Counted from the stretch's first letter, positions 1,281 to 61,154 are shown. The stretch: DNA of 64,000 nt from a virus (IMGVR_UViG_3300028025_003604:1923-65922); one strand, 5' to 3'. Notes: a model not told the origin generated them from the letters alone. Made by a program: numbers and translations.

Positions 1281-1390
1281 TCTCTTATATACTATGAGAA
1301 CTACTATACCCCCGAGCTGCCCACTTTTGGGCAATCAGGCCCGTTTTTAATCCTTTTCCTATTTCGTTTACCCAAGCACGTTAGTAAAAA

Positions 1391-1399
1391 TGTGGATAA
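1391..1399 (-). promoter_or_regulatory. DnaA box (TGTGGATAA on +)
   Basis: Perfect 9-mer ~75 bp upstream of the early promoter. Confidence 0.5.
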
Positions 1400-1472
1400 C
1401 TTTTTATCTCTTACTCTCCCAAGGGTTTGAGCCTGCTAAATCTGTTTAGCAGAGGCCTAATTTAAAAATTTA

Positions 1473-1505
1473 TTTGGAAGCGATTATCCATTGACGTTAG
1501 TTTTG
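1473..1505 (+). promoter_or_regulatory. Bacteroidota housekeeping-sigma early promoter
   Basis: -33 TTTG (1473-1476), 21-nt spacer, -7 TAGTTTTG (1498-1505). Confidence 0.75.
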
Positions 1506-2175: not shown

Positions 2176-2195
2176 TTCCCCCGAGCTGCTCACAA

Positions 2196-2438: not shown

Positions 2439-2645
2439 ATGTACGCAAAATTATCAATGGTGATTGCATCACACCTAAGCGATGCGCAGCACGACTTTGA
2501 ATCAGGTAATGATAAGCACGGGCACTACCGCTTAAACTTCATCAAATTGCTAGTACTTCAAAACCAAAGTTTAGATAAAGAGGTCAATGAAGAGTATCTG
2601 TGGAAGGTATGGAAAGAGTGCGAAGTTGGGGCTCCAAAAGATTAA
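2439..2645 (+). CDS. hypothetical protein
   Basis: ORF 2409..2645, likely start MYAKLS at 2439; GAT-TAA end forms HH3 stem I. Confidence 0.75.
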   Translation: MYAKLSMVIASHLSDAQHDFESGNDKHGHYRLNFIKLLVLQNQSLDKEVNEEYLWKVWKECEVGAPKD

Positions 2646-2691
2646 CTGATGAGGATTCAATATCCGAAACCTGCTCCGGCAGGTCTTAATC
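2640..2691 (+). ncRNA. hammerhead ribozyme HH3 (type I)
   Basis: GATTAA CTGATGA GGAT-TCAAT-ATCC GAAA CCTGC-TCCG-GCAGG TC^ TTAATC; cleavage after 2685. Confidence 0.95.
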
Positions 2692-2705
2692 AAAAAAATT
2701 TTACC

Positions 2706-3044
2706 ATGGAAACCTTACAAATCAAAAAAATTACCGGCCTAACTGAACTTGAGAAAAAAGTATTAACTGCGCTAGTTGATGGCATGTATGCAGAATGGGG
2801 ATTCAGCGATGTTGGAGCTACCGACCTTTCTGAATCTACCGGCATACCAAATAAGTCTATTCGCGGCGTAATTGGTTCGCTAGTTAAGAAGGGTCTAGTT
2901 TATGTGGATGACCGCACTGACATGTGTGACTACCGCAGCAATGACCCTGCATGGGAGCCCATCATATACCTGCAAAACGATGCCGAAGCATTGGTACCTA
3001 ATTGGCAAGAGCAGATAGGCTTCAAATCTGTTATCGAAGATTAA
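2706..3044 (+). CDS. winged-helix DNA-binding protein
   Basis: Start METLQ at 2706; LTELEKKVL...DLSESTGIPNKSIRGVIGSLVKKGLV HTH pattern. Confidence 0.7.
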   Translation: METLQIKKITGLTELEKKVLTALVDGMYAEWGFSDVGATDLSESTGIPNKSIRGVIGSLVKKGLVYVDDRTDMCDYRSNDPAWEPIIYLQNDAEALVPNWQEQIGFKSVIED

Positions 3045-3088
3045 CTGATGAGACTTAATTAGTCGAAACGCCTTCGGGCGTCTTAATC
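3039..3088 (+). ncRNA. hammerhead ribozyme HH4 (type I)
   Basis: GATTAA CTGATGA GACT-TAATT-AGTC GAAA CGCC-TTCG-GGCG TC^ TTAATC; cleavage after 3082. Confidence 0.95.
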
Positions 3089-3101
3089 AAAATCCAATCC
3101 C

Positions 3102-3574: not shown

Positions 3575-3585
3575 TTTACCCCCGA

Positions 3586-3629
3586 ACTGCCCCCATACCG
3601 ATGGCATCCGGTTCGTGACCGGAGGCAGT
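3586..3629 (+). ncRNA. mini tRNA-like element E1
   Basis: ACTGCC/GGCAGT closing stem, small hairpin CCAT-ACCG-ATGG, T-arm-like TCCGG-TTCGTGA-CCGGA. Confidence 0.65.
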
Positions 3630-3650
3630 CCTAATCAAAATCCAAACCAC

Positions 3651-3917
3651 ATGAACTATCAACAAATCAAAGCCGCTCAGAAGGAGCAGGGCTACGACCA
3701 ATGGCAACACATCATCAACACCGGCCATGCATGGAAGACGGAGGGCGCTATAGGACGCGAGGCAATGCACTTGCTAGAATCCGGCGCATGTATGCTTCCC
3801 AAGACTGCCTTCCAAGACTACTATGGCAACAGAATCCCATCACGTGACGACCTCAAGGCCGGAACTAAAGGGACCTTCCAAAACTCAGTAAACTATTACA
3901 CTAACAATGCTTGGTAA
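3651..3917 (+). CDS. hypothetical phage protein
   Basis: Start MNYQQ at 3651; GHAWKTEGAIGREAMHLLESGAC. Confidence 0.75.
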   Translation: MNYQQIKAAQKEQGYDQWQHIINTGHAWKTEGAIGREAMHLLESGACMLPKTAFQDYYGNRIPSRDDLKAGTKGTFQNSVNYYTNNAW

Positions 3918-4382: not shown

Positions 4383-4391
4383 CCTCCACCC

Positions 4392-4432
4392 AACCTACCG
4401 CCATGGGCGTGGGCTTCGATGCCGAGTAGGTT
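4392..4432 (+). ncRNA. mini tRNA-like element E2 (imperfect)
   Basis: AACCTAC/GTAGGTT 7-bp stem, CGCC-ATG-GGCG hairpin, GGC-TTCGAT-GCC T-like hairpin. Confidence 0.55.
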
Positions 4433-4452
4433 CTCATCAAAACTCAAACAAC

Positions 4453-4614
4453 ATGCAACAACAAGCATCAAAAACACGTAGCCACTTTGTACTATCTCTA
4501 GCTAAAAGTTTCTTAAGAGCCGGAGCATGTGTATGGCTTTACCTAGGCGACTATCAAGTAGCTGCCGGACTATTCTTAATCGCCGAAACCTTCGGTATTC
4601 TAGAAGAACTTTAA
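4453..4614 (+). CDS. small membrane protein
   Basis: Start MQQQASK; HFVLSLAKSFLR...LIAETFGILEEL. Confidence 0.7.
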   Translation: MQQQASKTRSHFVLSLAKSFLRAGACVWLYLGDYQVAAGLFLIAETFGILEEL

Positions 4615-4624: not shown

Positions 4625-4819
4625 ATGAGAAACAGAATCCACCCACCAATCTACTCTGTCAAGCCTAGTGGCCTAATCATCAAGCGCTGCAATAAACTGA
4701 GCGCATATGCAAGAAGGATGGAAGTATTGAAGGAACTCGGACTCGACGTAAAGGAATACGCCAAAGAGTGCAAGCTAAGGTCCTTATTCAGGATGCAGGC
4801 TGCAGGTCTTCTAGCATAA
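4625..4819 (+). CDS. hypothetical protein
   Basis: ORF in operon context. Confidence 0.65.
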   Translation: MRNRIHPPIYSVKPSGLIIKRCNKLSAYARRMEVLKELGLDVKEYAKECKLRSLFRMQAAGLLA

Positions 4820-4826
4820 TACCCCC

Positions 4827-4872
4827 GAGCTAGTAGGAATGACCGAAACCGGAGCGATACCGGTACTAGCTC
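4827..4872 (+). ncRNA. mini tRNA-like element E3
   Basis: GAGCTAGT/ACTAGCTC stem, linker, ACCGG-AGCGATA-CCGGT 5-bp stem with 7-nt loop abutting the closing strand. Confidence 0.7.
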
Positions 4873-4890
4873 CTCATTAAAACCTCAAAC

Positions 4891-5112
4891 ATGGATTACC
4901 CTTTAGAACTAAAAAAATATCTAGCTAGTAAGATGGCTAAGGTAGATGTTGAATGCATGGGAGTAGACTTCCAACAAGCATATGAATACCATTTAGCCAA
5001 CGACCCATTTACCCTCCTTGAATATTGGGCCGAATACTTCGGAGCATTTGACGACATGGGCGAAAACTTATTCATGGAGCTAAGCCCTGAGTCTATAGCA
5101 AAAAATAAATAA
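4891..5112 (+). CDS. hypothetical protein
   Basis: ORF directly after E3. Confidence 0.7.
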   Translation: MDYPLELKKYLASKMAKVDVECMGVDFQQAYEYHLANDPFTLLEYWAEYFGAFDDMGENLFMELSPESIAKNK

Positions 5113-5124
5113 GATAGTCCCCCG

Positions 5125-5168
5125 AACTGCGAGGTATGACCGAAGTAGGAGCGAAACCTACCGCAGTT
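5125..5168 (+). ncRNA. mini tRNA-like element E4
   Basis: AACTGCG/CGCAGTT 7 bp, GGT-ATG-ACC, GTAGG-AGCGAAA-CCTAC. Confidence 0.7.
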
Positions 5169-5212
5169 GCTAATCAAAAACTCAAGAGCGAGAGTCCAAA
5201 CGCACCAAACCT

Positions 5213-12885: not shown

Positions 12886-12890
12886 TTAAT

Positions 12891-12913
12891 AAGGCCCCCG
12901 ATCTGGGGGCTTT
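12891..12913 (+). terminator. intrinsic terminator after int
   Basis: GCCCCC-GATCT-GGGGGC followed by TTT. Confidence 0.7.
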
Positions 12914-12927
12914 TAAATTCCCACCCT

Positions 12928-13113
12928 ATGATATATGTAAACGGAGAAATTAAATTTAGTCAGGACATATCGCCACTGGCAGAATACGATGATGAGAAGA
13001 TGGAAGAGTTTATGCGAGAGTTTCAGGGGTTCATGGACCTGTACGCCATCACCCGCATCGATCTCTCTATCGATCCATATAAGTATATGCAACACAAAAA
13101 AGAAATGAGATGA
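12928..13113 (+). CDS. hypothetical protein
   Basis: CCCACCCTATG leader, shared with the gene at 20712. Confidence 0.6.
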   Translation: MIYVNGEIKFSQDISPLAEYDDEKMEEFMREFQGFMDLYAITRIDLSIDPYKYMQHKKEMR

Positions 13114-49865: not shown

Positions 49866-49866
49866 G

Positions 49867-51042: not shown

Positions 51043-51095
51043 TTGGCAGCAAAATTCCTCATTATACGTAAGTAATATGGGAAAAACAGACCCAC

Positions 51096-51125
51096 AAAAA
51101 AGCCCCACCTAAACAGGCAGGGCTT
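51096..51125 (-). terminator. intrinsic terminator
   Basis: AAGCCC...GGGCTT hairpin with an A-run on +. Confidence 0.55.
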
Positions 51126-51175
51126 AACCAAACCAAACGCGAGATGAACCTCTGTTTAGTTATAAACTAAGGTCA

Positions 51176-52009
51176 TCACTTCTTGGCCTTGCTTTGAATA
51201 GTTTGGTATACTTTCTCACCTTTCGCCGAGCTAACACAGAATGAGATTAACTCATCTACTGCATCGCTACCAGTACTTCTGGCCACCGTCAAGATAGCTT
51301 CCTTGTTAGGCCACTCGAATCTTGACTGCTCTTCGTTAAACACAATCACACCCTTTGTAACCGCACGGTTGATTGTTGCTTTCATTACAGCTTGCTTATT
51401 CCCGATAAGGTCTAAGAAAGCTGCAGGATCTGTATCTGCTAATTCTTCTAATTCGTTTCTAAGAACTGAAACAGGCTTGGTGTCGTCCTTACCTAAAGCA
51501 GCGCTATAGTCCTTCACATCTTCAGGGCTTAAGTCAGCAGCAGCATTTAAAGCTTCACGCTTCATGTTACGCTTCTTAGTCTCCTTCTCAGCCTTGGCGC
51601 CTTCATCTACTAATTCAAACACGATCTCCTTTGTTGTATCCCTATTAGGGTTAGATGCATTGTGATTGGTTAGTGACATGTAGCTATGGATCTCTTGATC
51701 AATAGCTCTTCCCCCGAACAGGGTCAAATGGCCAGCAAGCTGAGCTGTAAAGAAGATGTCATGGAATGTTGGATTGCCGTCCGAATCTACAGACCTTAAG
51801 GCTGCGATGTCTACGTACTCTTGTTTCTCTTCATCCCAGATCTGATCGATCACAGGGATATTCTTAGAAGCAGGGATCGCCAAACGAGACGGGTCCATTG
51901 GGTTTTTCTGAATGTTATAAAGCCTGTAAGTAACTCTCTCTCCCGGCTTTAACATGGTTGACTTCAACAACTTATCAGAAATGTTGTTGAACACTTTACT
52001 TTTTTTCAT
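51176..52009 (-). CDS. conserved protein downstream of the major capsid gene
   Basis: FELVD...A...DPAAFL...AVTKGVI; crAss-like synteny. Confidence 0.7.
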   Translation of the reverse strand: MKKSKVFNNISDKLLKSTMLKPGERVTYRLYNIQKNPMDPSRLAIPASKNIPVIDQIWDEEKQEYVDIAALRSVDSDGNPTFHDIFFTAQLAGHLTLFGGRAIDQEIHSYMSLTNHNASNPNRDTTKEIVFELVDEGAKAEKETKKRNMKREALNAAADLSPEDVKDYSAALGKDDTKPVSVLRNELEELADTDPAAFLDLIGNKQAVMKATINRAVTKGVIVFNEEQSRFEWPNKEAILTVARSTGSDAVDELISFCVSSAKGEKVYQTIQSKAKK

Positions 52010-52048
52010 TCTCGGTTTTTTGGTTTGTTAAATTCTTTGAGGTTAGAA

Positions 52049-52080
52049 AAAAATAAGAAGGGGACACTAGGCCCCCTCCT
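52049..52080 (-). terminator. terminator after the major capsid gene
   Basis: AGGGG...CCCCT hairpin with an A-run on +. Confidence 0.5.
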
Positions 52081-52094
52081 CATCCTTTTAGAGA

Positions 52095-53396
52095 TTAAAC
52101 TAATTTGAAGAACTGGTTTGCACCTAAGATCTCTAAACCTTGGATTGACTCGTAGTGGATTTCCAATACGCTTCTTTCGTTGGTAGGAACTGGAGCAAGA
52201 CCGCCTAACAAGATCTCACGATACTTAAGATCAAGACCGTCACCAGCCATGTATCTTACACCGATACGATCGATTAAAGCGCCATCAACAGTCTTCTGCT
52301 TTGTAGCAGGAGCACCGTAAGCAGCATCTTTGAAGTTAGGTCCACCAGTGAAGTTTACGATATTCTTGTGATCAAGAATTGGTAAGTACTTCTTGTGGTA
52401 TGTACGACCGTAGATCTTCACGCTGTCGATACCTAAATCTAATTTAGATTGTACGTTGAAACGAGCAGCTTGAGAAACGATAGCACCGTTACCTAATGCA
52501 TTAAAGAAGTTATCCCATGCAATGTTTTGAGTAGTACCTGTGAAAAGGAAGTACTCAGCAGGACAACGATCTTTATTCAAAGTCTGAGTTAAAGTCTTAA
52601 CATCAGCAGCGCTTAAAGAACCAGCAGTTAACAAGCTTTGGTTTACACCGTAAGTTGTAACATATTGGTCAAGACCTGCAGTTGTTTGAACTGGCTTACC
52701 TTCGCCATCTACTAATGAAGGGTTAGCGTCAGCAAACTGAGTTGTTGACATACGACCGAACATTAAAGCAGCACTGATGTCACCACGGAATTTCATTAAA
52801 GATTCGTGTTGACCTTTGTACATGTAGAAAGGTTTACCTTGGAATTCAACTTCAACTTTAGAAGCTTTCTGAACGTCAGTGATACTGAACTTGCCTTTGA
52901 AAGCTTGTACTTGGTTGTAGTATTTAGTTACACCCCAACGCTTAGCATCTGGAGAAAGTGAACCTTCACCAGCAGCGTTAGAGAAGAAGCTGATCTTGTC
53001 AGCAGGAGCAAGAGTTAATGTGCTAGCGTCAACACTCTTAATTACTACATTAGAGCCAGACTTAGAGAACACATAACCAACTTTCCCGTCAGGGAATAAA
53101 ACTAATTCACCAGCATTAACGTAAGCCCAAGCTGTAGCGTCAATTGTAGCAGTTACAGAAGTTGTAGTAGAACCAGTTACTGCAGTTACAGTAGCAAGAA
53201 CATACAATTCTTCGTTAACGAAGTGGTGATAGGTTGGAACAGAAGTAGGAGTAGAACGACCAGTCAATTCCATGATGTCAAGGAAAGAAGACTCTTCGTT
53301 TGTAATGTCCAATACTTTGTTAAGGATTTCTCTCTGATCGAGGAAATTTACAGATGATACGTATTTCTTATCGTATACGCCGATAGTACCTGCCAT
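52095..53396 (-). CDS. major capsid protein
   Basis: 433 aa, strong codon bias, portal-scaffold-MCP order. Confidence 0.85.
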   Translation of the reverse strand: MAGTIGVYDKKYVSSVNFLDQREILNKVLDITNEESSFLDIMELTGRSTPTSVPTYHHFVNEELYVLATVTAVTGSTTTSVTATIDATAWAYVNAGELVLFPDGKVGYVFSKSGSNVVIKSVDASTLTLAPADKISFFSNAAGEGSLSPDAKRWGVTKYYNQVQAFKGKFSITDVQKASKVEVEFQGKPFYMYKGQHESLMKFRGDISAALMFGRMSTTQFADANPSLVDGEGKPVQTTAGLDQYVTTYGVNQSLLTAGSLSAADVKTLTQTLNKDRCPAEYFLFTGTTQNIAWDNFFNALGNGAIVSQAARFNVQSKLDLGIDSVKIYGRTYHKKYLPILDHKNIVNFTGGPNFKDAAYGAPATKQKTVDGALIDRIGVRYMAGDGLDLKYREILLGGLAPVPTNERSVLEIHYESIQGLEILGANQFFKLV

Positions 53397-53429
53397 TTTT
53401 TAAAAATTTAAATAGGGGTTAGAATAAAA

Positions 53430-54467
53430 TTATTTGCTTACCCCTCTGTCTGCGAATGCTCTTAATAGGCCGGAAGTAAAATCCCCCGAACCGTCAGTGG
53501 GAACATCTCCAACAGAATTGCTAGAGGGGTTCTTGATTTCTTTTGTCACCTCGCTACGTCCAAGTGTCTTGCCATAATTAATCAAGGCTTTTTCAAAAAG
53601 CTCTGGATTTTGACTATAGGCTGCGGTCTTATACCACTTACTAAAGTCAATCTGGCCTTCACTGGAGGCGAACTGAGAAAAGAATTTGTCATTGTCAACA
53701 GTCATGTCCACGATTGATTCTGGCTCTGGGATTTCATATGCAAACTCTTCTTCTCCAACCTTGATAGCAATTCTCTTGTTTTCAAGAATGTTCTTTGTGA
53801 GTTCATGTGACTTTACAGATTGTTCGAACTTCTGTAATGCCTCCCTAGCTTCAGCTTCAGCTTGTTCCTGCTCTTGGCTACTTTCGTTTGAAGGTTCCGG
53901 GGCCTTAAAACCATTTTGCCAATCAACATACTTTTGACGAGACTTGGCTGCTTCTGATTTCAATAACTCTTGTCCGAGTTCAAAATCATCTTCGCCGTAC
54001 TCATCAGGATCAAGTTTGTACTTGTCGATTACTTGTTGCTTATAAAGCCTATCAAAAGCTTTATCAGAAACGTCAGGATACTGCTCGCGAAGACTACGTC
54101 TCATAATCTCCTCGTCAGACATCTGATTGAAATCAACAAGCTTTGCTTGCAGGTATGGGGTGATGTCGCCTGTTTTCTCGTAATACTCAACAACTCCTTT
54201 AATGAAGTCGTCTTTGAAATTGTAGGGGTCAACTGGGGCTTGCTTCTGAACTACTGGCTCAGTCTTAGTTTCCTCAGTCTTTGCAGGTTCAGCTGTAGCA
54301 GGAGCTGCTTCTGGAGCGTCTTCTGTTTTAGCTTCCGGTACACCATCAGTAGAAGTTTCTTTTACTCCTTCTTCTGTGTTTGTCTGCTGTTGACCTTCTT
54401 CTGCGATAGACTTACCGCCTATCGTCACATCTTCTAAAGAGATGCTGTTAAAATCTAGTTCACTCAT
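53430..54467 (-). CDS. scaffold/capsid assembly protein
   Basis: Acidic low-complexity N-terminus; between portal and MCP. Confidence 0.7.
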   Translation of the reverse strand: MSELDFNSISLEDVTIGGKSIAEEGQQQTNTEEGVKETSTDGVPEAKTEDAPEAAPATAEPAKTEETKTEPVVQKQAPVDPYNFKDDFIKGVVEYYEKTGDITPYLQAKLVDFNQMSDEEIMRRSLREQYPDVSDKAFDRLYKQQVIDKYKLDPDEYGEDDFELGQELLKSEAAKSRQKYVDWQNGFKAPEPSNESSQEQEQAEAEAREALQKFEQSVKSHELTKNILENKRIAIKVGEEEFAYEIPEPESIVDMTVDNDKFFSQFASSEGQIDFSKWYKTAAYSQNPELFEKALINYGKTLGRSEVTKEIKNPSSNSVGDVPTDGSGDFTSGLLRAFADRGVSK

Positions 54468-54486
54468 ATTTGTGGGTTTGGTTGTG

Positions 54487-54533
54487 CAAAGCTTTTATAT
54501 ATAGTTGACAATGTGTGGAAAAACAGGGGGTGG
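54487..54533 (-). promoter_or_regulatory. late promoter with CACCCCCTGTTTT element
   Basis: AAAACAGGGGGTG on +, 37 bp from CAAA. Confidence 0.55.
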
Positions 54534-54534
54534 T

Positions 54535-56931
54535 TTATTCCACCTCCTGTTCCATCATGTCTTCTTGCATATCCTCTTGCATATCTTCTTGCGTATCTTC
54601 TTCCTCTGGTTGTGTCATATTTGGTTGAGGGATAGGAATCTGAGGCACTGTACCAAAGTCATCATCTGGTTGGCCCATCTTTAACTTGGTAACACTCTTC
54701 TTCCCTTTGTTCTCTACCTCTTTAGTTGTAACCTTACCAGTCTGGCGCATTTGCTCTAACTGTAACTCATACTGATACTTGAGCTCAAGTAGCTTAGCAT
54801 CAAGTTCTTTTTCAACTTGAATGATCTGAGCTTTAACCTGACCTTCAACTTGGATGGTTTGTTGCTTAGCTTGCTCTGCCACCAACGCTGACTGCTGTTG
54901 GGTTTGAGCATTCATCTCCTGCATTCTAATAGCCTTCTCTTCTTCTTGCTCTCTACGCTTCTTGGTTTTGTACGCCAATAACTGCTGAGCAACTTTAAGG
55001 TTATCTGTATTCTGGATGATGATAGCATCTTCTATATCCAACATACCGTTAGCTTGACCGGCAGCAACCTGCTGCATCAACATAGCTCTTTGGTCATCAG
55101 TAGGTTTGTCTTCAAGGAAGATTCCGTATTCATGTAGATGAATGTTAGGATTGATGCGGATGAAGTTCAATGTGTTGTTTCCTAAAGATCTTAGGTAACC
55201 TTTAACCTCACCTTTCAAGATCACGTCCTGTAATCTTAGAACCACTGCGTTTGCTAAAGACTCAAGCAACTTCTTCTCGCCCTGTACTATATGAGTTAAG
55301 GCGTTGTTAGTTCCTTCGTATGCTAGCTTAGCTACAGTTGTAAGTGTACGTGGGTCAGGAGTAGATCCGTCAGTCAGCTCGTTCAATCCGGTAATATCTC
55401 TAAGCATTTGGATATTGTTCTGGATGATCTGCCAGTAGCTCATCACATCACGACCTAAACCATTCTCCAATTCTTCGATTGGCTTGTAGTTGGTCATTCT
55501 GCCTTGAGGATCTGACTTACGGTAAACTAGGGTACCAGTCTTGTTGTAAAGATCTAGGACCTTCATTGGCGTTAACTGCTTGCCGCCCTTACCTAATGGG
55601 ATCTCTTCTAGGGCACCCATCTCAATCATGATACCTTTAGGTCTAGCTTGGTTGATCGCGTTCTGTAGGCGATACCATGCGATCTGGATGGCATCAGCGA
55701 TTGGGATCAACTGCTCCATCATACCATAAGCACGCATATCCCAGAACTCTGGGGCGTATAGGTGGAAGTTTAGCTCAGTATCCATCAAGCTTGACTTAGC
55801 ACGCTTCATGTCTGTTTCTAAACCATAGTTGTAAATGAAGTCAGTATTAATGATCCACTTACCTTTATAAACTACCTTGTAGGCAACTCTTTCGAACTTG
55901 TCTTTCTTTTTGTTTCTGTCTTCGTATTTTGCTTTGGCGTAGATCTTGTTACCCCTCCTGTCAACACGCTGTTCGAAAACCAATTCATTAACACTGAAGA
56001 ACTCAATGTCGAGTACACGAATCTTGAACTTGTCATAACCTTTGTTGTAAATAGAGTAAGAGGTTGGCCAGTCTTTAGGGTTACCTAATAGGCCGATGTG
56101 GTTCTTGGCAATCTGCTCATACTGTTCTTCTGAGAACTGGTTGCCAGCCTGCTGCTTTAAATCTGCAATAGACATCTCAATGATTTCGCCAACATATTCA
56201 GCATCACTGAAGTCTTTGTTCTTACAATAAGAAGTAAGAATATTTCTTGGGTTAACGGTACGTACCTTAACGGCGCCATTACTGTCAATCCATTCTTTAT
56301 ATCCACCAACACCGAAATCAAAGAAGTCCTCACGGATCTTCTCTCTCATCTTCTCGATGCTGTTTTGTTCTAATATTAATTTGATACCCTGCTCAGCTTC
56401 TATTGCCATCTGATGCTTGAATGTGTAGTTCATTTGCATCTCAAGCTCTTCCATATCTTTTGCCTCCCGAGCTGACAGCTGTAGGGATGGAAGTTCTAAC
56501 AATGATGGGTCTACTTTCTTAGCCTGCTCACGAACAAGAAGCTTTGCTCTCATTCCTGCGAAGTATGCGTCTGTCTCTTCATTCGCCAATGGATCGATAG
56601 GCGTAGCGACAATGTTGTAATCTACTTTGTTTAACCTACCTAGTGCTATCCTTCTGAACTTAGGTACAATTGGAATAACACTCCAGTCTACGTTTAACCA
56701 TGTCTCGGTTGCCTCTTCATCTACACCAAGTAAAGGTTTATACTTGTTGATGGTTTGGTTACCCATGGCGTACTGTTTGTACATTTCATAGTTAAACCTG
56801 TTGTGGAAAAAGATATTGCGAGGTGTGTCATTCTCGAAAGAACTCCATGCTGCCTTACAATACTGCATAATCCATTCCCTGCCCTTCTCGGACGGCGGAA
56901 TCAAATGCGACGGAAACGACGCTGTTATCAT
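54535..56931 (-). CDS. portal protein
   Basis: NVDWSVIPIVPKF, ITGLNE..DGSTPD; follows the terminase. Confidence 0.88.
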   Translation of the reverse strand: MITASFPSHLIPPSEKGREWIMQYCKAAWSSFENDTPRNIFFHNRFNYEMYKQYAMGNQTINKYKPLLGVDEEATETWLNVDWSVIPIVPKFRRIALGRLNKVDYNIVATPIDPLANEETDAYFAGMRAKLLVREQAKKVDPSLLELPSLQLSAREAKDMEELEMQMNYTFKHQMAIEAEQGIKLILEQNSIEKMREKIREDFFDFGVGGYKEWIDSNGAVKVRTVNPRNILTSYCKNKDFSDAEYVGEIIEMSIADLKQQAGNQFSEEQYEQIAKNHIGLLGNPKDWPTSYSIYNKGYDKFKIRVLDIEFFSVNELVFEQRVDRRGNKIYAKAKYEDRNKKKDKFERVAYKVVYKGKWIINTDFIYNYGLETDMKRAKSSLMDTELNFHLYAPEFWDMRAYGMMEQLIPIADAIQIAWYRLQNAINQARPKGIMIEMGALEEIPLGKGGKQLTPMKVLDLYNKTGTLVYRKSDPQGRMTNYKPIEELENGLGRDVMSYWQIIQNNIQMLRDITGLNELTDGSTPDPRTLTTVAKLAYEGTNNALTHIVQGEKKLLESLANAVVLRLQDVILKGEVKGYLRSLGNNTLNFIRINPNIHLHEYGIFLEDKPTDDQRAMLMQQVAAGQANGMLDIEDAIIIQNTDNLKVAQQLLAYKTKKRREQEEEKAIRMQEMNAQTQQQSALVAEQAKQQTIQVEGQVKAQIIQVEKELDAKLLELKYQYELQLEQMRQTGKVTTKEVENKGKKSVTKLKMGQPDDDFGTVPQIPIPQPNMTQPEEEDTQEDMQEDMQEDMMEQEVE

Positions 56932-58919
56932 ATCTTATGTGCTTTAAAGTAATCACCGACCTCTCGTACGGCGGTTAAATCTTTTTTGGTAACCTTTATC
57001 TTATCAGCTATTAAGCAGTAGCCTGCAGCCATAGCCAAGTCAAATCGTGTAGTGTTTTGTGTGTCGAACTCAAGCCATTCTTTGATGAGCTCTTTGAAGT
57101 ATACGTTATCAATATTCTCTTTGATGTACGTATCTGTTATCTCTGCAATGTATTGAGTGTTTTTTGCTCCAGCTGCTATTCCGGGTTGAACTCTATCAGG
57201 AAGCCACATTAAAAAATTAAAGTACCCCCGATCTGTCATGTAGTGTTGCAATCCTATCTTCTGGTTCTCGAACAATACTTCTGCGCCATAATACACTGCA
57301 ACCTTTATCACCTCTTCATAAAACATCTGAGGTGTGTCTGGTCTGTAGCAATACTTTGCAACGAATGCATTGTTGTAGCTAGACTCTGTTGGGTTGTGCT
57401 TCTTCAGCACGATGATGGCGCCATTGGACATTTTATTGTCTGCAGTCTTGATGTGGTCAAAGGGATCGACTCCGATTACAAACCCTGTGTTACTAGGGTG
57501 GTAGCTTTCGCCTCTCTTCTGTATCCTGTTAGATTGCGTATCATCTTTAAACAGATAAACAATCTCCCATTTACCATTCTGCCTTGGCTCAAACTCTACC
57601 CTCGTATCCCTGTCACCATCCTTCCAAACAAACTCACCTCTTGTGGTAATGTTATCCTTCCAGCTTAACCTGTCAAGTCTTTCGTTTAGTAACATGGCGT
57701 CGTATAAACAATCGTCACCATCTACCCTGAAAGCCTCTTCGATTGTAAAAGGATTCTTGCGTATGATTGAACTCAACTGACGTGTGTCGTGAGCAAAACC
57801 TTTTCGCATGTTCAGGTAATAGGTCATACCTTTTACCGTGTCTTCATTTCCATACTCGTCAAAGAACGTAGACTCATGAGCTCCGAAGAATAATCTGTAC
57901 ATACCAGATGTAGTTCTTCCATTCTCATCTCTTTTAGTTTGATCACTGTTGGTCCATATATCTTTAGGGCCTCTACCAGTGACATCTATATCTTCAATGG
58001 TTGACGTAACAAAAGCTTTTCCAACCCAGTTGCCGTCCTGATCCATACAATACCTTACGATATTCCATGTATCCCATACGTTAGATCTTTGTGGTTTACC
58101 AAACTCATCCAGCGTGTATGCATATAATGCGTTACCGTCGTATGCGAATGATTCAGATGATCCGAAGTTTATTACGCTTCTTAACTCATCTCCTTGTAAC
58201 ATGTCGTCAGAATGCTTACCCTTGATTGTTGGTTTATAAAACCTTAGTTCTTTCTTAGGGCGCAAACCTTGAGAGGTGTCATAGATAGGCTTGAAGAAGT
58301 GAGGGAGGTTTACGAAGTAGTTGATGAGCTTACTAAAAACAATCTTAGCATCTTCATCCGTTTTACTTTGTGTACCACCAACCTTATCTAGCGCCAAGCT
58401 CAAACGATCTAACTGCCATGCATTCGCTATATATGTTTTACCACCACGACGTCTGCTGACATATACTAACCCGCCAGCTCGGGGATCATCTTCTACCGAT
58501 CTTAAACAGTAGAATATTTTCCTATCCGTATTTCTAAAATTCATGTAACCCACGTTCGTGACGCACCAATTCAGATAATACCAGTGGGTTCCAGTTATAT
58601 AAACATCTTGTCCGTTATTTTTAAACCAAAATCCACAACGTCTATACGTCCAATGTTTCTCACGTATAGCCTCTAGTTCTGGATCGAAGTAGTCAGGATC
58701 TTGTTTCATCCTTAACTCTTCTTTTGCTCTACGTTTATCGTAGTCTCTCGGTAGAAGTATTCTTTCAAACTTCTGTTCCGATTTCTTTGGTGAAGACTGA
58801 TGTACGCCTATGTGTACCAGATCTCCAGTAAGACGGTCAACGCCGTAGCCTACCGGAGGAACCCAGCACTCTATTCCTTGTATGTTTTCAAGCGTACCGC
58901 CTTCTACCTTTCTATACAT
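56928..58919 (-). CDS. terL: terminase large subunit
   Basis: RRRGGKT Walker A, LDEFGK Walker B, GVDPFD nuclease, FDLAMAAG. Confidence 0.92.
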   Translation of the reverse strand: MYRKVEGGTLENIQGIECWVPPVGYGVDRLTGDLVHIGVHQSSPKKSEQKFERILLPRDYDKRRAKEELRMKQDPDYFDPELEAIREKHWTYRRCGFWFKNNGQDVYITGTHWYYLNWCVTNVGYMNFRNTDRKIFYCLRSVEDDPRAGGLVYVSRRRGGKTYIANAWQLDRLSLALDKVGGTQSKTDEDAKIVFSKLINYFVNLPHFFKPIYDTSQGLRPKKELRFYKPTIKGKHSDDMLQGDELRSVINFGSSESFAYDGNALYAYTLDEFGKPQRSNVWDTWNIVRYCMDQDGNWVGKAFVTSTIEDIDVTGRGPKDIWTNSDQTKRDENGRTTSGMYRLFFGAHESTFFDEYGNEDTVKGMTYYLNMRKGFAHDTRQLSSIIRKNPFTIEEAFRVDGDDCLYDAMLLNERLDRLSWKDNITTRGEFVWKDGDRDTRVEFEPRQNGKWEIVYLFKDDTQSNRIQKRGESYHPSNTGFVIGVDPFDHIKTADNKMSNGAIIVLKKHNPTESSYNNAFVAKYCYRPDTPQMFYEEVIKVAVYYGAEVLFENQKIGLQHYMTDRGYFNFLMWLPDRVQPGIAAGAKNTQYIAEITDTYIKENIDNVYFKELIKEWLEFDTQNTTRFDLAMAAGYCLIADKIKVTKKDLTAVREVGDYFKAHKI

Positions 58920-59516
58920 TTATCTCTTAGCCTGTGACTCGGGGCTTAATCTTTTTCGTTTGGTTATTGAGTCTTCGAGTTGTTCATCCCCTCCTGATAA
59001 TTCGCGGATGTATTTTTTGAGTCTCTGAGCTATATCATCTTGAGACTGCATGATTGAAGTTTTTATATTGATCGCCTGAAGGATGTCTTTATCACGACTA
59101 CCATCTACCGGCATCATTACTCTTTGGTTGAATTCGTAGAACGCCTGTTCATTTGATACGACCATAGACCATACCCAGTTATTCTGGTACTTGAGATACT
59201 TCATGATTAATTCTAGCATCTCTTCGCACGGAACATATTCGTCCTCTTCATTCTTAGTTTTAAAATCAAATAGTTCTGTAACATCATCCTTATCTAAGTC
59301 ATACCCAGCAATGGATGCAGCGAATTTCTTACGCTTACCTAGTTCAGGATAGTATTCTCTGAGTGGCGAATTCTGATCGTACATCAAAAGGACGTATCTC
59401 ATCATCTTATCATCAACATCACCTACTATCTGCTTTAGTTTAGGGTACACAACCGTCACTGCCTTTTTAACAGTAGGGTTGAACTCCATCCTTAAGTAAT
59501 CGTTTTCACTAATCAT
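58920..59516 (-). CDS. hypothetical protein, possible terminase small subunit
   Basis: Directly upstream of terL; YVLLMYD..SPL. Confidence 0.5.
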   Translation of the reverse strand: MISENDYLRMEFNPTVKKAVTVVYPKLKQIVGDVDDKMMRYVLLMYDQNSPLREYYPELGKRKKFAASIAGYDLDKDDVTELFDFKTKNEEDEYVPCEEMLELIMKYLKYQNNWVWSMVVSNEQAFYEFNQRVMMPVDGSRDKDILQAINIKTSIMQSQDDIAQRLKKYIRELSGGDEQLEDSITKRKRLSPESQAKR

Positions 59517-60199
59517 GGTCTTGTGGTTTTATCGCATCTGTTACAGTAGCCTTCATACATATTCAGTATGGCGTTATACTCTATATTAGTGACAGCGCCA
59601 CAATCACATGTGATACTATCCGGTACTTCGATAGAAGCCTTAATAGCTTCCCTATAACTTTCAGGTCTTACGATATAAATAACCTTGTCGATGAATGTAT
59701 ATGGCAGTCTCTTAGATAGTGCCGTGTAGAACTCACCGTCACCGCAATAAACAAACCCCCACTTGGGAAGGTTATCGATCTTAGGATATACGCCTGTTGG
59801 GGTGCCAACGTTTCCTATGGCAACCACGTGTTCTCTGGGAACCCGCATATCCTGCACCGAATACTGAAAGAAGTAGAGCTTGTGTTCTGTACAATGACTT
59901 CGTATAATCTCCATTGCGTTAGGAGCGTAGATGTCATCGTCATCGCCATTCATTAAGTAATCTCCCGGCAGTTCATCCTGCCACCTAGACCTAGATCCAT
60001 GGCCCCAATAACCGAGCGGCTCGGGGTTATGTAAAGTGATAACTTTACATTTACTATCTATTTGTAAAGCTATAGGTTGACAATCCCAGATGATGGTTAG
60101 GTAATCGTTCTCGTTTAACTGAGGGGCGATACTATCTATCATCCTTTGTAGGGTTGGTCTACCTGCTGTGGCTATTACTACGTTGAATGATTTGCTCAT
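59513..60199 (-). CDS. GT-A (family 2-like) glycosyltransferase
   Basis: VVIATAGRPTL, GDDDD motif, C-terminal CxC...CxxC. Confidence 0.8.
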   Translation of the reverse strand: MSKSFNVVIATAGRPTLQRMIDSIAPQLNENDYLTIIWDCQPIALQIDSKCKVITLHNPEPLGYWGHGSRSRWQDELPGDYLMNGDDDDIYAPNAMEIIRSHCTEHKLYFFQYSVQDMRVPREHVVAIGNVGTPTGVYPKIDNLPKWGFVYCGDGEFYTALSKRLPYTFIDKVIYIVRPESYREAIKASIEVPDSITCDCGAVTNIEYNAILNMYEGYCNRCDKTTRP

Positions 60200-61154
60200 A
60201 TACTTTTAATCTTTCAGGTGCATGTTTGTATAAGTCATAATTCTCTTTACAGAATTTGTATAACTTATCCCCCGAACTCTTTCTTAGTTCAGGATCTTCC
60301 ACCAACCTTGTTATCTGTTCCACCCATGCCTTCTCTCCGTTTGCATAGTGCACAGGAAGACCACGGTATGGATCAGCATCACTGACCACGACCGGCATCT
60401 TTAGTGCTGCAAACTCAAGCAGTTTCAGATTGCTCTTACACTTGTTAAACTGTGTGGACTTACTCGGAAGAATTCCGATGTCGCCGACATAATTTGACAT
60501 GTAAGAATATGAATCTGCCCACGGCATGAAGCTGTGTGGAATCTTACCATCTGCTGTTAAGTTCTTAACCAGTATGTCAAAGAGCGGGTTCTCTTTATAC
60601 CCAGCTATAACAATCTCGATATTGAGATGAGACAGCTTGTGCATTGCTCCCGCGATAAGGTCGGTGTTCGCATAGTTCATGATCGTACTGGCGTATAATA
60701 GCCTGACACGTTCACTCTTCTTCTGCGCTTTATATTTAAACTGCCCCTTACCATAAGAGATAAGATTAGGCAGAATGTATATATGATTGTTTGGTACCTG
60801 CTCGGCCAGATCTGCATGTGTGCAGGTAACCGCATCGGCATTCATTAAGTGTTGTCGGATCTGTAAGCTGATATTGCTCTTGGTCCACCACTGGTACTTG
60901 GGGTGACCTTTGTCAACCTCCCACCAGTCATCTGTGTCTACCACGATCTTAAATCCATACTTGTCCCTGAACTGGTTCAAGAAGTCTACGGCTATCATGG
61001 TATGACGGCTGTAATGCAGGATGTCACACCATGCCAGATCCTCTTCGGATAACTGGGTTACGGTACGTACATCTGCTTCGATCGATTGGTTTGGTAAGTG
61101 AATACGATGGTAGGTACATCCATCCATCCCTTTCACGTAGGACAACACTTTCAT
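60159..61154 (-). CDS. GT-B glycosyltransferase
   Basis: DTDDWW, DIGILP...FNKCKSNLKLLE...PVVVS. Confidence 0.85.
   Translation of the reverse strand: MKVLSYVKGMDGCTYHRIHLPNQSIEADVRTVTQLSEEDLAWCDILHYSRHTMIAVDFLNQFRDKYGFKIVVDTDDWWEVDKGHPKYQWWTKSNISLQIRQHLMNADAVTCTHADLAEQVPNNHIYILPNLISYGKGQFKYKAQKKSERVRLLYASTIMNYANTDLIAGAMHKLSHLNIEIVIAGYKENPLFDILVKNLTADGKIPHSFMPWADSYSYMSNYVGDIGILPSKSTQFNKCKSNLKLLEFAALKMPVVVSDADPYRGLPVHYANGEKAWVEQITRLVEDPELRKSSGDKLYKFCKENYDLYKHAPERLKVYEQIIQRSNSHSR

What the first reader, a model, noticed from the sequence alone, without database searches (positions are those of the whole stretch)
1309..60278. Genome-wide, strand-biased over-representation of CCCCCGA(A/G/T)CT
Seen (manual count, may be incomplete): CCCCCGA on + at 1309, 2178, 3579, 4822, 5119, 6458, 11831, 12323, 12895, 14460, 27011, 28220, 37362, 42129, 47909, 51711, 53483, 57225 and 60269 (19 copies). 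On - it occurs at about 15126, 21300, 22721 and 40693 (4 copies). Near-matches such as CTCCCGAGCT add more. Most copies continue -ACT or -GCT. A rough independent-base estimate at ~40% GC gives about one per strand. Many copies lie inside CDSs of both orientations, so the bias follows the DNA strand rather than transcription. Inference: a polar DNA signal such as a host Chi-like site protecting injected linear DNA from AddAB/RecBCD, a translocase/packaging orientation signal, or a protein-binding site.
Basis: partly seen in the sequence, partly recalled or inferred. Interest (0 to 1): 0.72.

Follow-up and report, generated by a model that had tools for sequence, protein, structure and literature searches.

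The report
Polar DNA word in phage clade
A short C-rich DNA word is packed about twenty times too often into this freshwater phage and its close relatives, points in a set direction that flips at the replication genes, and in the early genes it opens small tRNA-like or ribozyme RNA-processing modules, so it is a real, lineage-specific signal whose reader is still unknown.

Summary
CCCCCGA occurs 19 times on + and 4 times on −. That is 10–25× more than dinucleotide, Markov or codon-aware nulls give. The full word is about 15 nt: WWWW-CCCCC-GA-N-C-T-G.

The word is confined to one genus-level phage clade. It is absent from sister clades, cultured relatives and unrelated phage contigs, and rare in 406 Bacteroidota genomes. 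A host Chi or KOPS site is therefore not supported.

- **Polarity is not uniform.** In 15 genomes it is 104:28 (+:−) upstream of the primase-helicase gene. It is 8:26 from that gene to the convergent arm junction, and 84:20 through the late arm.
- **Early-arm copies open RNA-processing modules.** They start 1–4 nt after a stop codon. Their GANCTG is the 5′ strand of a covarying tRNA-like minihelix, or they precede a hammerhead. A conserved leader and the next ATG follow.

Best reading (about 0.4): the C-run/G junction marks where an RNA 5′ end is made. RNase P would make it in the tRNA-like modules. At stand-alone copies RNA chains would start there, oriented like lagging-strand primers from an origin beside the primase gene. 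Rivals are promoters, Chi-like sites, nick sites and roadblocks. No read-level data were available.

The parts
1309..1319 (+). Word copy. It lies 29 nt after the stop of the conserved 108-aa ORF and opens a ~700-nt ORF-free region that ends in a hammerhead.
2178..2188 (+). Word copy 3 nt after a stop codon, followed about 18 nt later by a hammerhead (core at 2202).
3576..3655 (+). Intergenic module: word at 3579, tRNA-like element, A/C-rich leader, ATG.
   Evidence: R1 69.2 bits; fold; alignment A2
4819..4895 (+). Intergenic module: word at 4822 plus a tRNA-like element with a covarying acceptor stem, GAGCTAGTA/TACTAGCTC.
   Evidence: R1 76.2 bits; fold z = -3.05
5116..5194 (+). Intergenic module: word at 5119 plus a tRNA-like element.
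   Evidence: R1 66.2 bits
6455..6527 (+). Intergenic module: word at 6458 plus a tRNA-like element (acceptor GAACCGG/CCGGTTC).
   Evidence: R1 32 bits; sequence
4384..4457 (+). tRNA-like element without the exact word (degraded C-run).
   Evidence: R1 28.4 bits
5557..5628 (+). tRNA-like element with a variant word (CCCCTGAGCCG).
   Evidence: R1 40.6 bits
1937..1989 (+). Hammerhead-like ribozyme (core CTGATGAG..CGAAAC at 1963) just before the ATG at 2002.
   Evidence: Rfam RF00008, 26.4 bits, below gathering score 48.5; core
2637..2705 (+). Hammerhead-like module (core at 2646). Stem I holds the upstream stop codon. No word copy. The span is approximate: it was read by eye from the printout.
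3036..3095 (+). Hammerhead-like module (core at 3045) with GUC before UUAAUC. No word copy.
   Evidence: Rfam RF00163, 23.5 bits, below gathering score 34; three-way-junction fold; sequence
11831..14470 (+). Four plus copies at 11831, 12323, 12895 and 14460. Two lie in the integrase-like gene, one in Erf. The copy at 12895 is the 5′ arm of a terminator-like hairpin, CCCCCGATCTGGGGG.
15129..22730 (-). Three minus copies at 15129, 21303 and 22724, forming the reversed-polarity domain. The copy at 22724 is part of the hairpin at the convergent arm junction.
27011..60279 (+). Nine stand-alone plus copies inside late genes, antisense to them: 27011, 28220, 37362, 42129, 47909, 51711, 53483, 57225, 60269. 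There are also 3 CTCCCGA variants at 30112, 35021 and 56464.
   Evidence: no acceptor partner above background
40696..40702 (-). Single minus copy in the late arm (sense to its gene).
17073..18815 (+). T7 gp4-type primase-helicase gene. In the 15-genome composite the word's polarity flips near its start.
16455..16922 (+). Phg_2220_C 'replication initiation'-type protein just upstream of the polarity switch.

Best explanation
SHOWN.
- CCCCCGA is the core of a ~15-nt asymmetric word, WWWW-CCCCC-GA-N-C-T-G. One genus-level clade of freshwater, Bacteroidota-type podophages carries it 23-40 times per ~66-kb genome.
- It has two contexts. (I) In the hypervariable early arm it opens the intergenic modules. 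It begins 1-4 nt after the upstream stop codon. Its GANCTG is the 5′ strand of the 7-bp acceptor-like stem of a covarying tRNA 'top-half' (5-bp T-stem, TTCGAnn loop), or it sits just upstream of a hammerhead. A conserved U(C/U)A(U/A)UCAAAAC leader and the next ATG follow. (II) Elsewhere it stands alone inside genes, in any frame and without structure.
- Its polarity forms two domains. These switch near the start of the primase-helicase gene and at the convergent arm junction.

INFERRED (about 0.4).
- The junction between the C-run and the G is a place where an RNA 5′ end is made.
- In the tRNA-like modules host RNase P would cut there, with a 3′ cut after the discriminator. This would chop a polycistronic early transcript into mRNAs with uniform leaders.
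- At stand-alone copies RNA chains would start at that G, copied from the G-rich strand.
- The genome-wide orientation of such chains is always opposite to forks leaving an origin next to the replication genes. That is the orientation of lagging-strand primers.
- The lead candidate reader is the phage's own gp4-type primase-helicase. A phage-redirected host RNA polymerase is the alternative.
- A long recognition word would itself explain why the word has to be enriched to about one per 1.6-2.6 kb.
For: Enrichment. It is 5-25× over codon-aware nulls in all four arm × orientation classes, pooled over 5 genomes.

Clade specificity.
- 6 of 6 relatives with TerL ≥73% identity carry 19-40 copies.
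- 3 relatives with TerL at 51%, 42% and 29% identity carry 0-1 copies.
- 5 cultured relatives carry 0-2 copies.
- 64 sister-clade primase loci (708 kb) carry 4 copies in all.
- The two of those three distant relatives whose sequence was fetched (TerL 51% and 42%) have no other enriched word.

Polarity domains in 15 genomes: 104:28, then 8:26, then 84:20. Fisher p = 3.5e-9 and 2.5e-9. The first switch lies within one operon, with no change of transcription direction.

Early-arm architecture.
- 31% of copies lie within 10 nt of the upstream stop, against 3% of random positions.
- 30% have the next ATG 60-100 nt away, against 12% of random positions. The values visibly cluster at about 61-83 nt in the per-site listing.

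tRNA-like element.
- 97.9% of cells are paired against 73.4% in shuffles (0 of 500 reach it). Sliding the partner gives 25-46%. All 5 T-arm pairs show compensatory changes.
- There are 52 hits, all gene-sense in clade early arms, and none in the sister clade above E = 0.22.
- 32 of the 52 start with the exact C5|GA register.
- The first five acceptor pairs, the part shared with the word, do not vary, while the inner pairs covary. So the word carries its own sequence constraint.

G and A after the C-run are invariant, as initiating purines usually are.

A primase Zn-motif peptide (WNCHNCGW) is present.

Spacing: mean gaps are 1.6-2.6 kb. The gap CV is 0.64-0.94 against 0.94 for random placement, and 1 of 5 genomes is significant.

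Intragenic copies are uniform along genes.
Against: - No read-level data exist. All 22 listed runs are assembled contigs and no RNA holder is listed. No 5′ end, nick or primer was therefore observed.
- Known primases read 3-5 nt, not 9-15 nt (recalled knowledge).
- If the primase reads the word only on replicating DNA, the fixed register with the tRNA-like stem and the placement before hammerheads would be a coincidence.
- Early-arm polarity is absolute (38:0 in five genomes, from the map). That is sharper than the roughly 80:20 seen elsewhere and looks transcription-related.
- No origin-like iterons or AT-rich block were found at either switch point.
- 4-fold-site skews shift only weakly at the primase gene: GC4 is -0.23 upstream and -0.15 downstream.
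- A terminus only ~5 kb from the origin needs an extra assumption, namely that forks stall against head-on late transcription.
- RNase P alone can explain the 5′ ends of the tRNA-like modules without any sequence word.
- No phage RNA polymerase or sigma factor was found. The giant virion protein has no DFDxD motif, no PDB relative, and resembles polyvalent proteins (a lead only).
Confidence: 0.4

Rival explanations
1. Compact phage-specific promoter. Host RNA polymerase, redirected by an early phage factor, would start at or near the G. One candidate factor is the conserved 108-aa first-gene product. Sense copies would drive early and recombination genes. Antisense copies in replication and late genes would delay those genes by transcriptional interference. 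The ribozyme or tRNA-like element behind each promoter would act as an insulator that gives every mRNA the same leader.
For: - Early-arm copies are intergenic, directly upstream of genes and 100% gene-sense (38:0).
- They have a fixed register with the 5′ end of the tRNA-like element (32 of 52) and are placed before hammerheads.
- The canonical Bacteroidota promoter pattern is not enriched: 3 matches against 2.7 expected.
- 'Wrong-way' copies in late genes would be harmless under this model.
- The 108-aa ORF is present in 5 of 5 full clade genomes and absent from the outgroup.
Against: - No RNA polymerase or sigma factor was identified.
- About 80% of copies outside the early arm are antisense and inside genes, which is unprecedented for a promoter class.
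- They show no preference for gene 5′ ends.
- Polarity flips from sense to antisense inside what looks like one operon (Erf-exo-...-primase, with overlapping ORFs).
- No second promoter element is conserved between -15 and -5.
Confidence: 0.22
2. Chi-like site for the host's AddAB/RecBCD nuclease. Properly oriented copies would switch the nuclease from degradation to recombination. This would protect rolling-circle tails or broken forks, as in Chi-rich lambdoid phages.
For: - There is a close statistical precedent, read in passages of PMC12315714. Phage LLS has 23 Chi sites, 20:3 in orientation, half of them in the terminal 22% of the genome. [quoted passage not shown]
- Here the word is the top 7-mer of the genome, runs 19:4, and is denser toward one arm.
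- The complement GYTCGGGGG is G-rich, like known Chi sites (recalled).
- Polarity that diverges at the replication genes and converges elsewhere is the geometry of Chi on bacterial chromosomes.
Against: - Host test: 0 of 406 Bacteroidota genomes show Chi-like density together with enrichment. The maximum is 578 copies in 3.6 Mb at 1.7× the control, and the best ratios (about 4×) occur at 1 per 15 kb.
- No N-C dependency appears in the five most enriched genomes (26-34%).
- In the partial listing for the most enriched genome (G207), the largest contig shows mixed strands.
- Sister clades and unrelated phage contigs are not enriched.
- The phage encodes Erf plus a YqaJ exonuclease. In the lambdoid survey, Chi-rich phages lack a Rec module.
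- The word carries 9-15 informative positions, against 5-8 for known Chi sites (recalled).
- Caveat: the true host is unknown and may be unsampled.
Confidence: 0.13
3. Recognition word of a phage nickase, giving localized single-strand interruptions in virion DNA as in T5, phiKMV-like phages and phage tf.
For: - Precedent read in passages of PMC3517423. Phage tf has two convergent arms and 14 nicks at a 9-bp consensus, all in one strand, 11 of them in the left half. Positions are similar in relatives and the consensus differs slightly between relatives.
- Here the word has a similar length and copy number, is clade-specific, and is partly conserved in position. The copy at 53483 is kept in 3 of 3 relatives and the copy at 42129 in 2 of 3.
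Against: - Known nick words are confined to one strand. Here about 22% of copies lie on the other strand with full flanks (C at +8 in 23 of 24), and polarity inverts over a 5-kb domain.
- No nickase candidate was found. The tyrosine recombinase is absent from G003, which carries 30 copies.
- Nicking does not explain the fixed register with RNA structures.
- Nicks could not be examined because only contigs were available.
Confidence: 0.08
4. Polar roadblock or termination/cleavage signal, 'stoperator'-like. A phage DNA- or RNA-binding protein bound to the word would stop polymerases coming from one side. This would shut off early transcription and kill read-through antisense transcripts that cross the convergent junction in either direction.
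For: - Orientation fits. The word faces rightward transcription in the early arm and in the late arm (where rightward means antisense). It faces leftward transcription only between the primase gene and the junction (again antisense).
- Copies sit immediately after stop codons.
- Two copies are built into terminator-like hairpins at 12895 and 22724.
- Small conserved HTH-like ORFs exist: a weak DnaA_C-like hit at 7126-7476 and a weak DUF4364 hit at 954-1280.
Against: - Sense copies in late genes (18 in five genomes) are 5-10× enriched over null, although they should be harmful under this model.
- Sense copies inside Erf, exo and integrase would cut off their own operon.
- The first switch does not coincide with a visible operon boundary.
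- The cI-like repressor is missing from word-rich G003 and G411.
- The DnaA_C-like ORF also occurs in word-free outgroup loci.
Confidence: 0.08

Closest known systems
Chi-rich lambdoid phages (LLS, MD8; PMC12315714, passages read)
   Same: - One short asymmetric word is the most over-represented k-mer of the phage.
- There are about 20-30 copies, roughly 85-100% in one orientation, denser toward one end.
   Different: - There the word is the host's Chi and the phages lack a Rec module.
- Here the word is not enriched in 406 Bacteroidota genomes and the phage has Erf/YqaJ.
- The word here is longer, and its polarity inverts over a 5-kb domain.
- Its early-arm copies are fused to RNA structures.
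Localized nick words of phage tf, T5 and phiKMV-like phages (PMC3517423, passages read)
   Same: - A lineage-specific ~9-bp word with 14 or more copies and strand bias.
- A podophage with convergent arms, with more copies in the early half.
- Partial positional conservation among relatives.
- Function unknown.
   Different: - Those words lie on one strand only.
- Nicks there were shown physically, whereas nothing physical could be tested here.
- No link to RNA elements is reported there.
Mycobacteriophage L5 'stoperators'
   Same: About 30 asymmetric ~13-bp sites spread over the genome, many in short intergenic gaps, and orientation-dependent.
   Different: - Stoperators are co-oriented with transcription in both arms and are bound by the immunity repressor.
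- Here most copies outside the early arm are antisense.
- The cI-like repressor is dispensable for the presence of the word.
T7 gp4 primase recognition sites, 5′-(G/T)(G/T)GTC-3′ (recalled)
   Same: - Read by a Zn-finger primase-helicase on the lagging-strand template.
- The primer starts with a purine next to a 'cryptic' base.
- The orientation is set by fork direction.
   Different: T7 sites are 3-5 nt and need no enrichment, whereas the word here has 9-15 informative positions and is 16-24× enriched.
tRNA punctuation and RNase P substrates; ribozyme insulators (recalled concepts)
   Same: Acceptor-stem plus T-arm minihelices and self-cleaving hammerheads sit between cistrons and give defined mRNA ends.
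   Different: - Here they are truncated tRNA mimics, not tRNA genes. Rfam's tRNA model does not match them at E ≤ 5.
- They lie in a phage early operon and alternate with hammerheads.
- 32 of 52 are prefixed by the genome-wide word.

Membership tests
Chi (RecBCD/AddAB control) site | Over-represented and polar in the genome that uses it | tested here: met
   Searches show this for the phage itself.
Chi (RecBCD/AddAB control) site | The same word is over-represented and strand-skewed in the host chromosome | tested here: not met
   - 5 named plus 401 sampled Bacteroidota genomes were counted, with the N-C dependency test.
- The host itself is unknown, so an unsampled host cannot be excluded.
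Chi (RecBCD/AddAB control) site | Changes the activity of the host nuclease at the site | not testable with these tools
   This needs biochemistry or genetics.
Localized nick (sci) words of T5/tf/phiKMV | All copies lie on one strand | tested here: not met
   - The ratio is 19:4 in the window and 84:24 in four genomes, and minus copies carry full flanks.
- Polarity inverts over a 5-kb domain.
Localized nick (sci) words of T5/tf/phiKMV | A physical nick at the word in virion DNA | not testable with these tools
   Only assembled contigs were available.
Phage promoter class | Intergenic, upstream of genes and co-oriented with them | tested here: inconclusive
   - Met in the early arm: 38:0, and 31% of copies lie within 10 nt of the upstream stop.
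- Not met elsewhere, where copies are intragenic and about 80% antisense.
Phage promoter class | A cognate polymerase or sigma factor is encoded or recruited | tested here: not met
   - Nothing was found in the PHROG or Pfam scans of about 50 ORFs.
- The giant protein does not look like an RNA polymerase.
- Small unannotated ORFs remain unexamined.
tRNA-like element / RNase P substrate | A 7-bp acceptor stem stacked on a 5-bp T-stem with a 7-nt TTCGAnn loop, supported by covariation | tested here: met
   97.9% of cells paired, 0 of 500 shuffles reach it, and 8 of 12 pairs show double changes.
tRNA-like element / RNase P substrate | Cleavage by RNase P at position -1/+1 | not testable with these tools
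   No RNA data were available.
tRNA gene (Rfam RF00005) | Matches the full cloverleaf model | tested here: not met
   - None of the modules is reported at E ≤ 5.
- Only 7483-7571 matches the tRNA model.
Hammerhead ribozyme | CUGAUGA and GAAA cores, three stems, and an NUH cleavage site | tested here: inconclusive
   - Cores and stems are seen by eye and in the fold.
- Rfam scores are below the gathering thresholds: 26.4 against 48.5 and 23.5 against 34.
Primase recognition site (gp4 type) | Lies on the lagging-strand template, so its polarity flips at the origin | tested here: inconclusive
   The polarity flip lies beside the replication genes, but the origin has not been mapped and no iterons were found.
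Primase recognition site (gp4 type) | A short (3-5 nt) recognition sequence | tested here: not met
   The word has 9-15 informative positions.

The most novel reading that the evidence does not exclude
A phage lineage has evolved a long (9-15 nt) start word for RNA chains. Its own primase-helicase would use the word for lagging-strand priming. The word therefore had to be sown through the whole genome at Okazaki-fragment spacing, with polarity set by an origin beside the primase gene. The same word was co-opted as the 5′ strand of tRNA-mimic 'punctuation marks' that, together with hammerhead ribozymes, cut a hypervariable early operon into uniform mRNAs.
Probability: 0.15. Interest if true: 0.85.

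Novelty: new variant of a known kind. Interest (0 to 1): 0.68.

Why it matters
- Genome-wide polar words (Chi, KOPS, nick words, stoperators) are rare windows into how DNA machines read direction. This word belongs to an abundant freshwater phage clade: its endolysin alone has 5,804 metagenomic relatives at E ≤ 1e-10.
- The word is not borrowed from the host, at least as far as 406 Bacteroidota genomes show.
- Its polarity map predicts an origin and a terminus that can be tested directly.
- The early arm shows a compact natural design: stop codon, word, tRNA mimic or hammerhead, standard leader, ATG. I did not find this design described for phage operons in the listing of one six-term literature search. 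It resembles engineered ribozyme insulators.
- Either result would be useful. A long-site primase or a new promoter class would be new biochemistry. A Chi of an unsampled host would give the first Chi sequence for that group.

Tried and rejected
1. **Peptide-motif or codon-usage artefact.** Rejected: all three frames are used, and synonymous and codon-order shuffles do not reproduce the counts.
2. **General hairpin next to the word.** Rejected: folding energies of the flanks equal those of random positions. Only a subset of early-arm copies pairs with a downstream partner.
Rejected: it is absent from G003, which has 30 copies.
Rejected: it is absent from G003 and G411 and present in word-free G413.
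Not supported: it also occurs in 8 word-free outgroup loci.
6. **crAss-type virion RNA polymerase.** The giant protein has no DFDxD motif and no PDB relative. In the phi14:2 preprint (10.1101/2020.03.07.982082, passages read), early transcripts have no common upstream motif.
7. **Sequencing runs.** No RNA holder is listed. All 22 listed runs are Logan contigs. Laying four of them showed strain variation and cassette swaps but cannot show nicks, ends or starts.
8. **Host identification.** The TerL scan of bacterial genomes found nothing. The endolysin search returned only phage contigs among the 120 listed hits.
9. **Origin-like repeats or AT-rich blocks at the switch points.** None were clear.
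10. **Antisense copies aimed at gene 5′ ends.** Rejected: they are uniform along genes.
11. **Canonical Bacteroidota promoter pattern.** At chance level.
12. **Hammerheads in three relatives by Rfam at E ≤ 0.5.** None were reported. A core-pattern scan then found 1-2 per relative.


Full report
**1. The observation**

It also finds 4 minus-strand positions (15129, 21303, 22724, 40696). Dinucleotide shuffles give 2.34 ± 1.55 copies (maximum 7), and 0 of 100 reach 23.

The word is longer than seven bases. C at +8 is invariant (23 of 23). T at +9 occurs in 18 of 23 and G at +10 in 17 of 23. The four bases upstream are A/T-rich. On the plus strand of the whole genome CCCCCG occurs 19 times, as often as CCCCCGA, so every copy is followed by A. 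Pooled over four genomes the figures are 85 and 84. The variant CTCCCGA-N-CT adds 5 plus and 0 minus copies.

The window is bases 1923-65922 of a 65,922-bp viral record. Its 127-bp terminal repeat looks like a circular-assembly overlap. The first 1,922 bases hold no copy.

Inside CDS there are 12 plus copies, against 1.24 (synonymous-codon shuffle) or 0.77 (codon-order shuffle), and 0 of 500 shuffles reach 12. Copies in late genes use all three frames.

**2. What genome this is**

- Genes run rightward from about 0.3 to 22.6 kb and leftward from 64 to 22.7 kb.
- The late arm has a portal, a large terminase, tail fibres, an endolysin and a 2,864-aa protein.
- The left arm has many small ORFs, a tyrosine recombinase and a cI-like HTH gene on the opposite strand. 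It also has Erf, a YqaJ exonuclease, a Phg_2220_C protein, a T7 gp4-type primase-helicase, RusA and a dNMP kinase. No DNA polymerase was seen.
- Only 7 of 85 ORF starts have a Shine-Dalgarno-like sequence, and leaders are A-rich.
- The nearest cultured TerL relatives (25-30% identity) infect Flavobacterium, Cellulophaga and Tenacibaculum.
- Public runs that hold the sequence are freshwater or subsurface metagenomes.

A Bacteroidota host is likely but not shown.

**3. Distribution of the word**

- Relatives with TerL at 73-78% identity all carry it, and the excess strand is always antisense to TerL. The counts are 18:5, 13:6, 24:6, 18:5, 23:9 and 29:11, so 6 of 6 agree. In the genomes examined it is the most enriched 7-mer, at 16-24× an order-2 Markov expectation.
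- Relatives at 51%, 42% and 29% TerL identity have 0-1 copies. The two whose sequence was fetched (51% and 42%) have no other word enriched more than about 4-7×.
- Five cultured relatives have 0-2 copies.
- 64 sister-clade loci found through the primase (40-43% identity, 708 kb) hold 4 copies in total.
- I scanned IMG/VR for one 14-base form of the word, and 80 loci were examined. All 11 word-rich loci with G+C below 0.5 are members of this clade. The others are mostly single chance hits in high-G+C contigs.

**4. Host test**

I obtained Bacteroidota genome handles with a 16S probe.

- CCCCCGANC occurs 3-52 times in five named genomes of 2.7-6.5 Mb, never above the reversed control.
- In 401 genomes drawn evenly from the phylum, the maximum is 578 copies in 3.6 Mb at 1.7× the control. 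The best ratios (about 4×) occur at 1 copy per 15 kb, and most genomes hold fewer than 50 copies. The phage has 23 copies in 64 kb, and its reversed control count is 0.
- In the five most enriched genomes, only 26-34% of CCCCCGA copies are followed by N-C, against 98% in the phage.

A host Chi or KOPS site is therefore unsupported. The caveat is that the host is unknown.

**5. Polarity is not uniform**

I oriented five full genomes alike. In the early arm the word is exclusively plus: 10:0, 7:0, 5:0, 11:0 and 5:0. It is mostly minus from the replication genes to the arm junction, and mostly plus again in the late arm.

I then added ten non-redundant loci centred on the primase-helicase. The composite is:

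| Region relative to the primase start | + : − |
|---|---|
| −15 kb to 0 | 104 : 28 |
| 0 to +5 kb (the arm junction) | 8 : 26 |
| beyond +5 kb | 84 : 20 |

The Fisher p-values for the two switches are 3.5e-9 and 2.5e-9. Of the 13 genomes or loci that have copies in the 0 to +5 kb stretch, 10 have more minus than plus there, 2 are tied and 1 goes the other way. All 15 have more plus than minus upstream of the primase start.

The first switch lies inside a run of overlapping same-strand ORFs, so it is not a change of transcription direction. The second coincides with the convergent junction. The divergent junction shows no strand switch.

Minus copies carry the full flanks (C at +8 in 23 of 24). 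Codon-aware nulls show 5-25× enrichment in all four arm × orientation classes. Both orientations are therefore selected, one about four times more strongly than the other.

Individual sites turn over, but number and polarity persist. The copy at 53483 is kept in 3 of 3 relatives and the copy at 42129 in 2 of 3, while others are lost.

**6. Early-arm copies head RNA-processing modules**

Among 107 plus copies upstream of the primase gene, 31% begin within 10 nt of the upstream ORF's stop, mostly 1-4 nt. The figure for random positions is 3%. For 30% of copies the next ATG-ORF start lies 60-100 nt away, against 12% for random positions. In the per-site listing the values cluster at about 61-83 nt.

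Aligning these modules shows this layout:

CCCCC | GAACTGN … a short variable arm … a 5-bp stem with a TTCGAnn loop … NCAGTTC, C, TCATCAAAAC…ATG

This is a tRNA 'top half': a 7-bp acceptor stem stacked on a T-arm.

- Covariation is strong. 97.9% of cells are paired against 73.4% in shuffles (0 of 500 reach it). Sliding the partner gives 25-46%. All five T-stem pairs change on both sides in 3-11 of 21 sequences.
- The five outer acceptor pairs, which overlap the word, do not vary.
- A covariance model finds 52 such elements in the 15 clade genomes. All are gene-sense and in the early arm. It finds none in G412 or G413, and only two hits at E = 0.22 in 755 kb of sister-clade DNA.
- 32 of the 52 begin with the exact word in the same register. 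The rest have degraded C-runs or wholly different, compensated acceptor stems.
- Rfam's tRNA model does not match them.

The same arm holds hammerhead-like modules. In the window, CTGATGAG…CGAAAC cores lie at 1963, 2202, 2646 and 3045, and most relatives have 1-2. Rfam scores are sub-threshold. The sequence at 3036-3095 folds into a three-way junction. Cleavage after GUC would leave UUAAUCAAAA…AUG, nearly the leader that follows the tRNA-like elements. At 2178, and in locus L168, the word precedes a hammerhead instead of forming a stem.

Outside the early arm the word has no such partner: 7 of 65 late-arm copies against 8% of random positions. Flank folding energies are no different from random.

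**7. Mechanism**

What is shown:
- It is a clade-specific ~15-nt word under selection.
- It has two polarity domains.
- In the early arm it has a fixed position at the start of intergenic modules, where the C-run/G junction coincides with the 5′ end of a tRNA-like stem.

My best reading (0.4) is that this junction is where an RNA 5′ end is made.

- In the modules the obvious agent is RNase P. A 3′ cut after the discriminator would give the uniform leader.
- For stand-alone copies I infer de novo RNA starts at the invariant G-A, copied from the G-rich strand.
- The orientation of such chains is everywhere opposite to forks leaving the region just upstream of the primase-helicase gene. That is the orientation of lagging-strand primers.
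- With that origin, replication would run co-directionally with transcription of the replication genes and of all late genes.
- A primase that needs a long word would force the genome to sow that word at about 1.6-2.6 kb spacing.

Points against this reading:
- Known primases read 3-5 nt (recalled).
- No origin-like feature was found.
- 4-fold-site skews shift only weakly.
- The early arm's absolute polarity and the fixed register with RNA elements look transcriptional.
- A terminus 5 kb from the origin needs forks to stall against late transcription.

Rivals:
- **A compact promoter with antisense copies (0.22).** It explains the early arm best. It lacks a polymerase or sigma factor, and the flip inside one operon and the uniform intragenic spread count against it.
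- **A Chi-like site (0.13).** The statistics are strikingly similar to phages LLS and MD8, but the host test is negative and a Rec module is present.
- **A nick word (0.08).** The precedent is phage tf, but copies here lie on both strands.
- **A polar roadblock or terminator (0.08).** The orientation logic fits, but sense copies in late genes are enriched.

**8. Novelty and limits**

I know of no described phage word that combines all four of these properties:
- genome-wide enrichment,
- two polarity domains anchored at the replication genes,
- absence from the likely host phylum, and
- fusion to tRNA-like or hammerhead punctuation of an early operon.

The one literature search aimed at such punctuation (listing only) showed no paper describing it. 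That is not proof of absence, and supplements were closed.

All mechanistic steps beyond sequence statistics and covariation are inference. No reads, RNA or host were available.

Noticed in passing
window 1900-6530 (and the early arms of L014, L019, L168, L169, L171-L179): The hypervariable early arm is 'punctuated'. Nearly every small ORF is followed by a ~55-nt tRNA-like minihelix (6 in the window) or a hammerhead-like ribozyme (4 in the window), then a conserved U(C/U)A(U/A)UCAAAAC leader and the next ATG. The ORFs themselves are almost entirely different between relatives.
   Followed up: yes
window 1281-2001: A ~700-nt ORF-free, G+C-richer stretch that begins with a word copy and a terminator-like hairpin and ends in a hammerhead. 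Parts of it are 72-80% identical in G411, G003 and G005. In the four relatives a hammerhead core lies about 500-970 nt past the start of the conserved 108-aa ORF, and a word copy directly follows that ORF in G005 and G004. This may be an abundant early non-coding RNA.
   Followed up: partly
window 7483-7571 and 7798-7892; 7868-8565: A tRNA match with a 28-nt insertion (Rfam, 35 bits) and a second tRNA-like call with an odd anticodon (ARAGORN). Just downstream, contigs from four runs join 7892 to about 8460 or carry different inserts, so this is a cassette-swapping hotspot.
   Followed up: no
window 11584-13949: A lysogeny-type module: a tyrosine recombinase, a cI-like HTH gene on the opposite strand (13290-13619) and a small divergent Cro-like ORF. 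The recombinase and repressor are missing from the near-complete relative G003, so the clade may mix temperate and lytic members.
   Followed up: partly
window 24557-33151 (-): The 2,864-aa protein has no DFDxD motif and no PDB relative. Its first 1,500 residues resemble 'polyvalent' multi-domain phage proteins (ART-PolyVal and LPD domains; atlas score 0.88, a lead only).
   Followed up: partly
window 12894-12910 and 22708-22738: Two terminator-like hairpins are built from the word itself (CCCCCGA-N-CTGGGGG). One follows the integrase gene and the other sits at the convergent arm junction. Similar hairpins occur in G004 at 3440 and 12457.
   Followed up: partly
window 7126-7476: A small ORF conserved across the clade, with a sub-threshold match to the DnaA C-terminal DNA-binding domain (24.7 bits against a cut-off of 31.5). 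Homologues at 30-31% identity also occur in eight word-free sister-clade loci.
   Followed up: partly
window 1-20000 in run X1: The k-mer depth of the source run's contigs rises stepwise, from 87 at the left end of the early arm to 812 over the primase gene. This suggests many co-existing strains that share the replication genes but differ in their early cassettes.
   Followed up: no
whole clade: The clade appears very abundant in public metagenomes. The endolysin alone has 5,804 relatives at E ≤ 1e-10. The best 120 are 74-96% identical, and many lie on 60-66-kb contigs.
   Followed up: no
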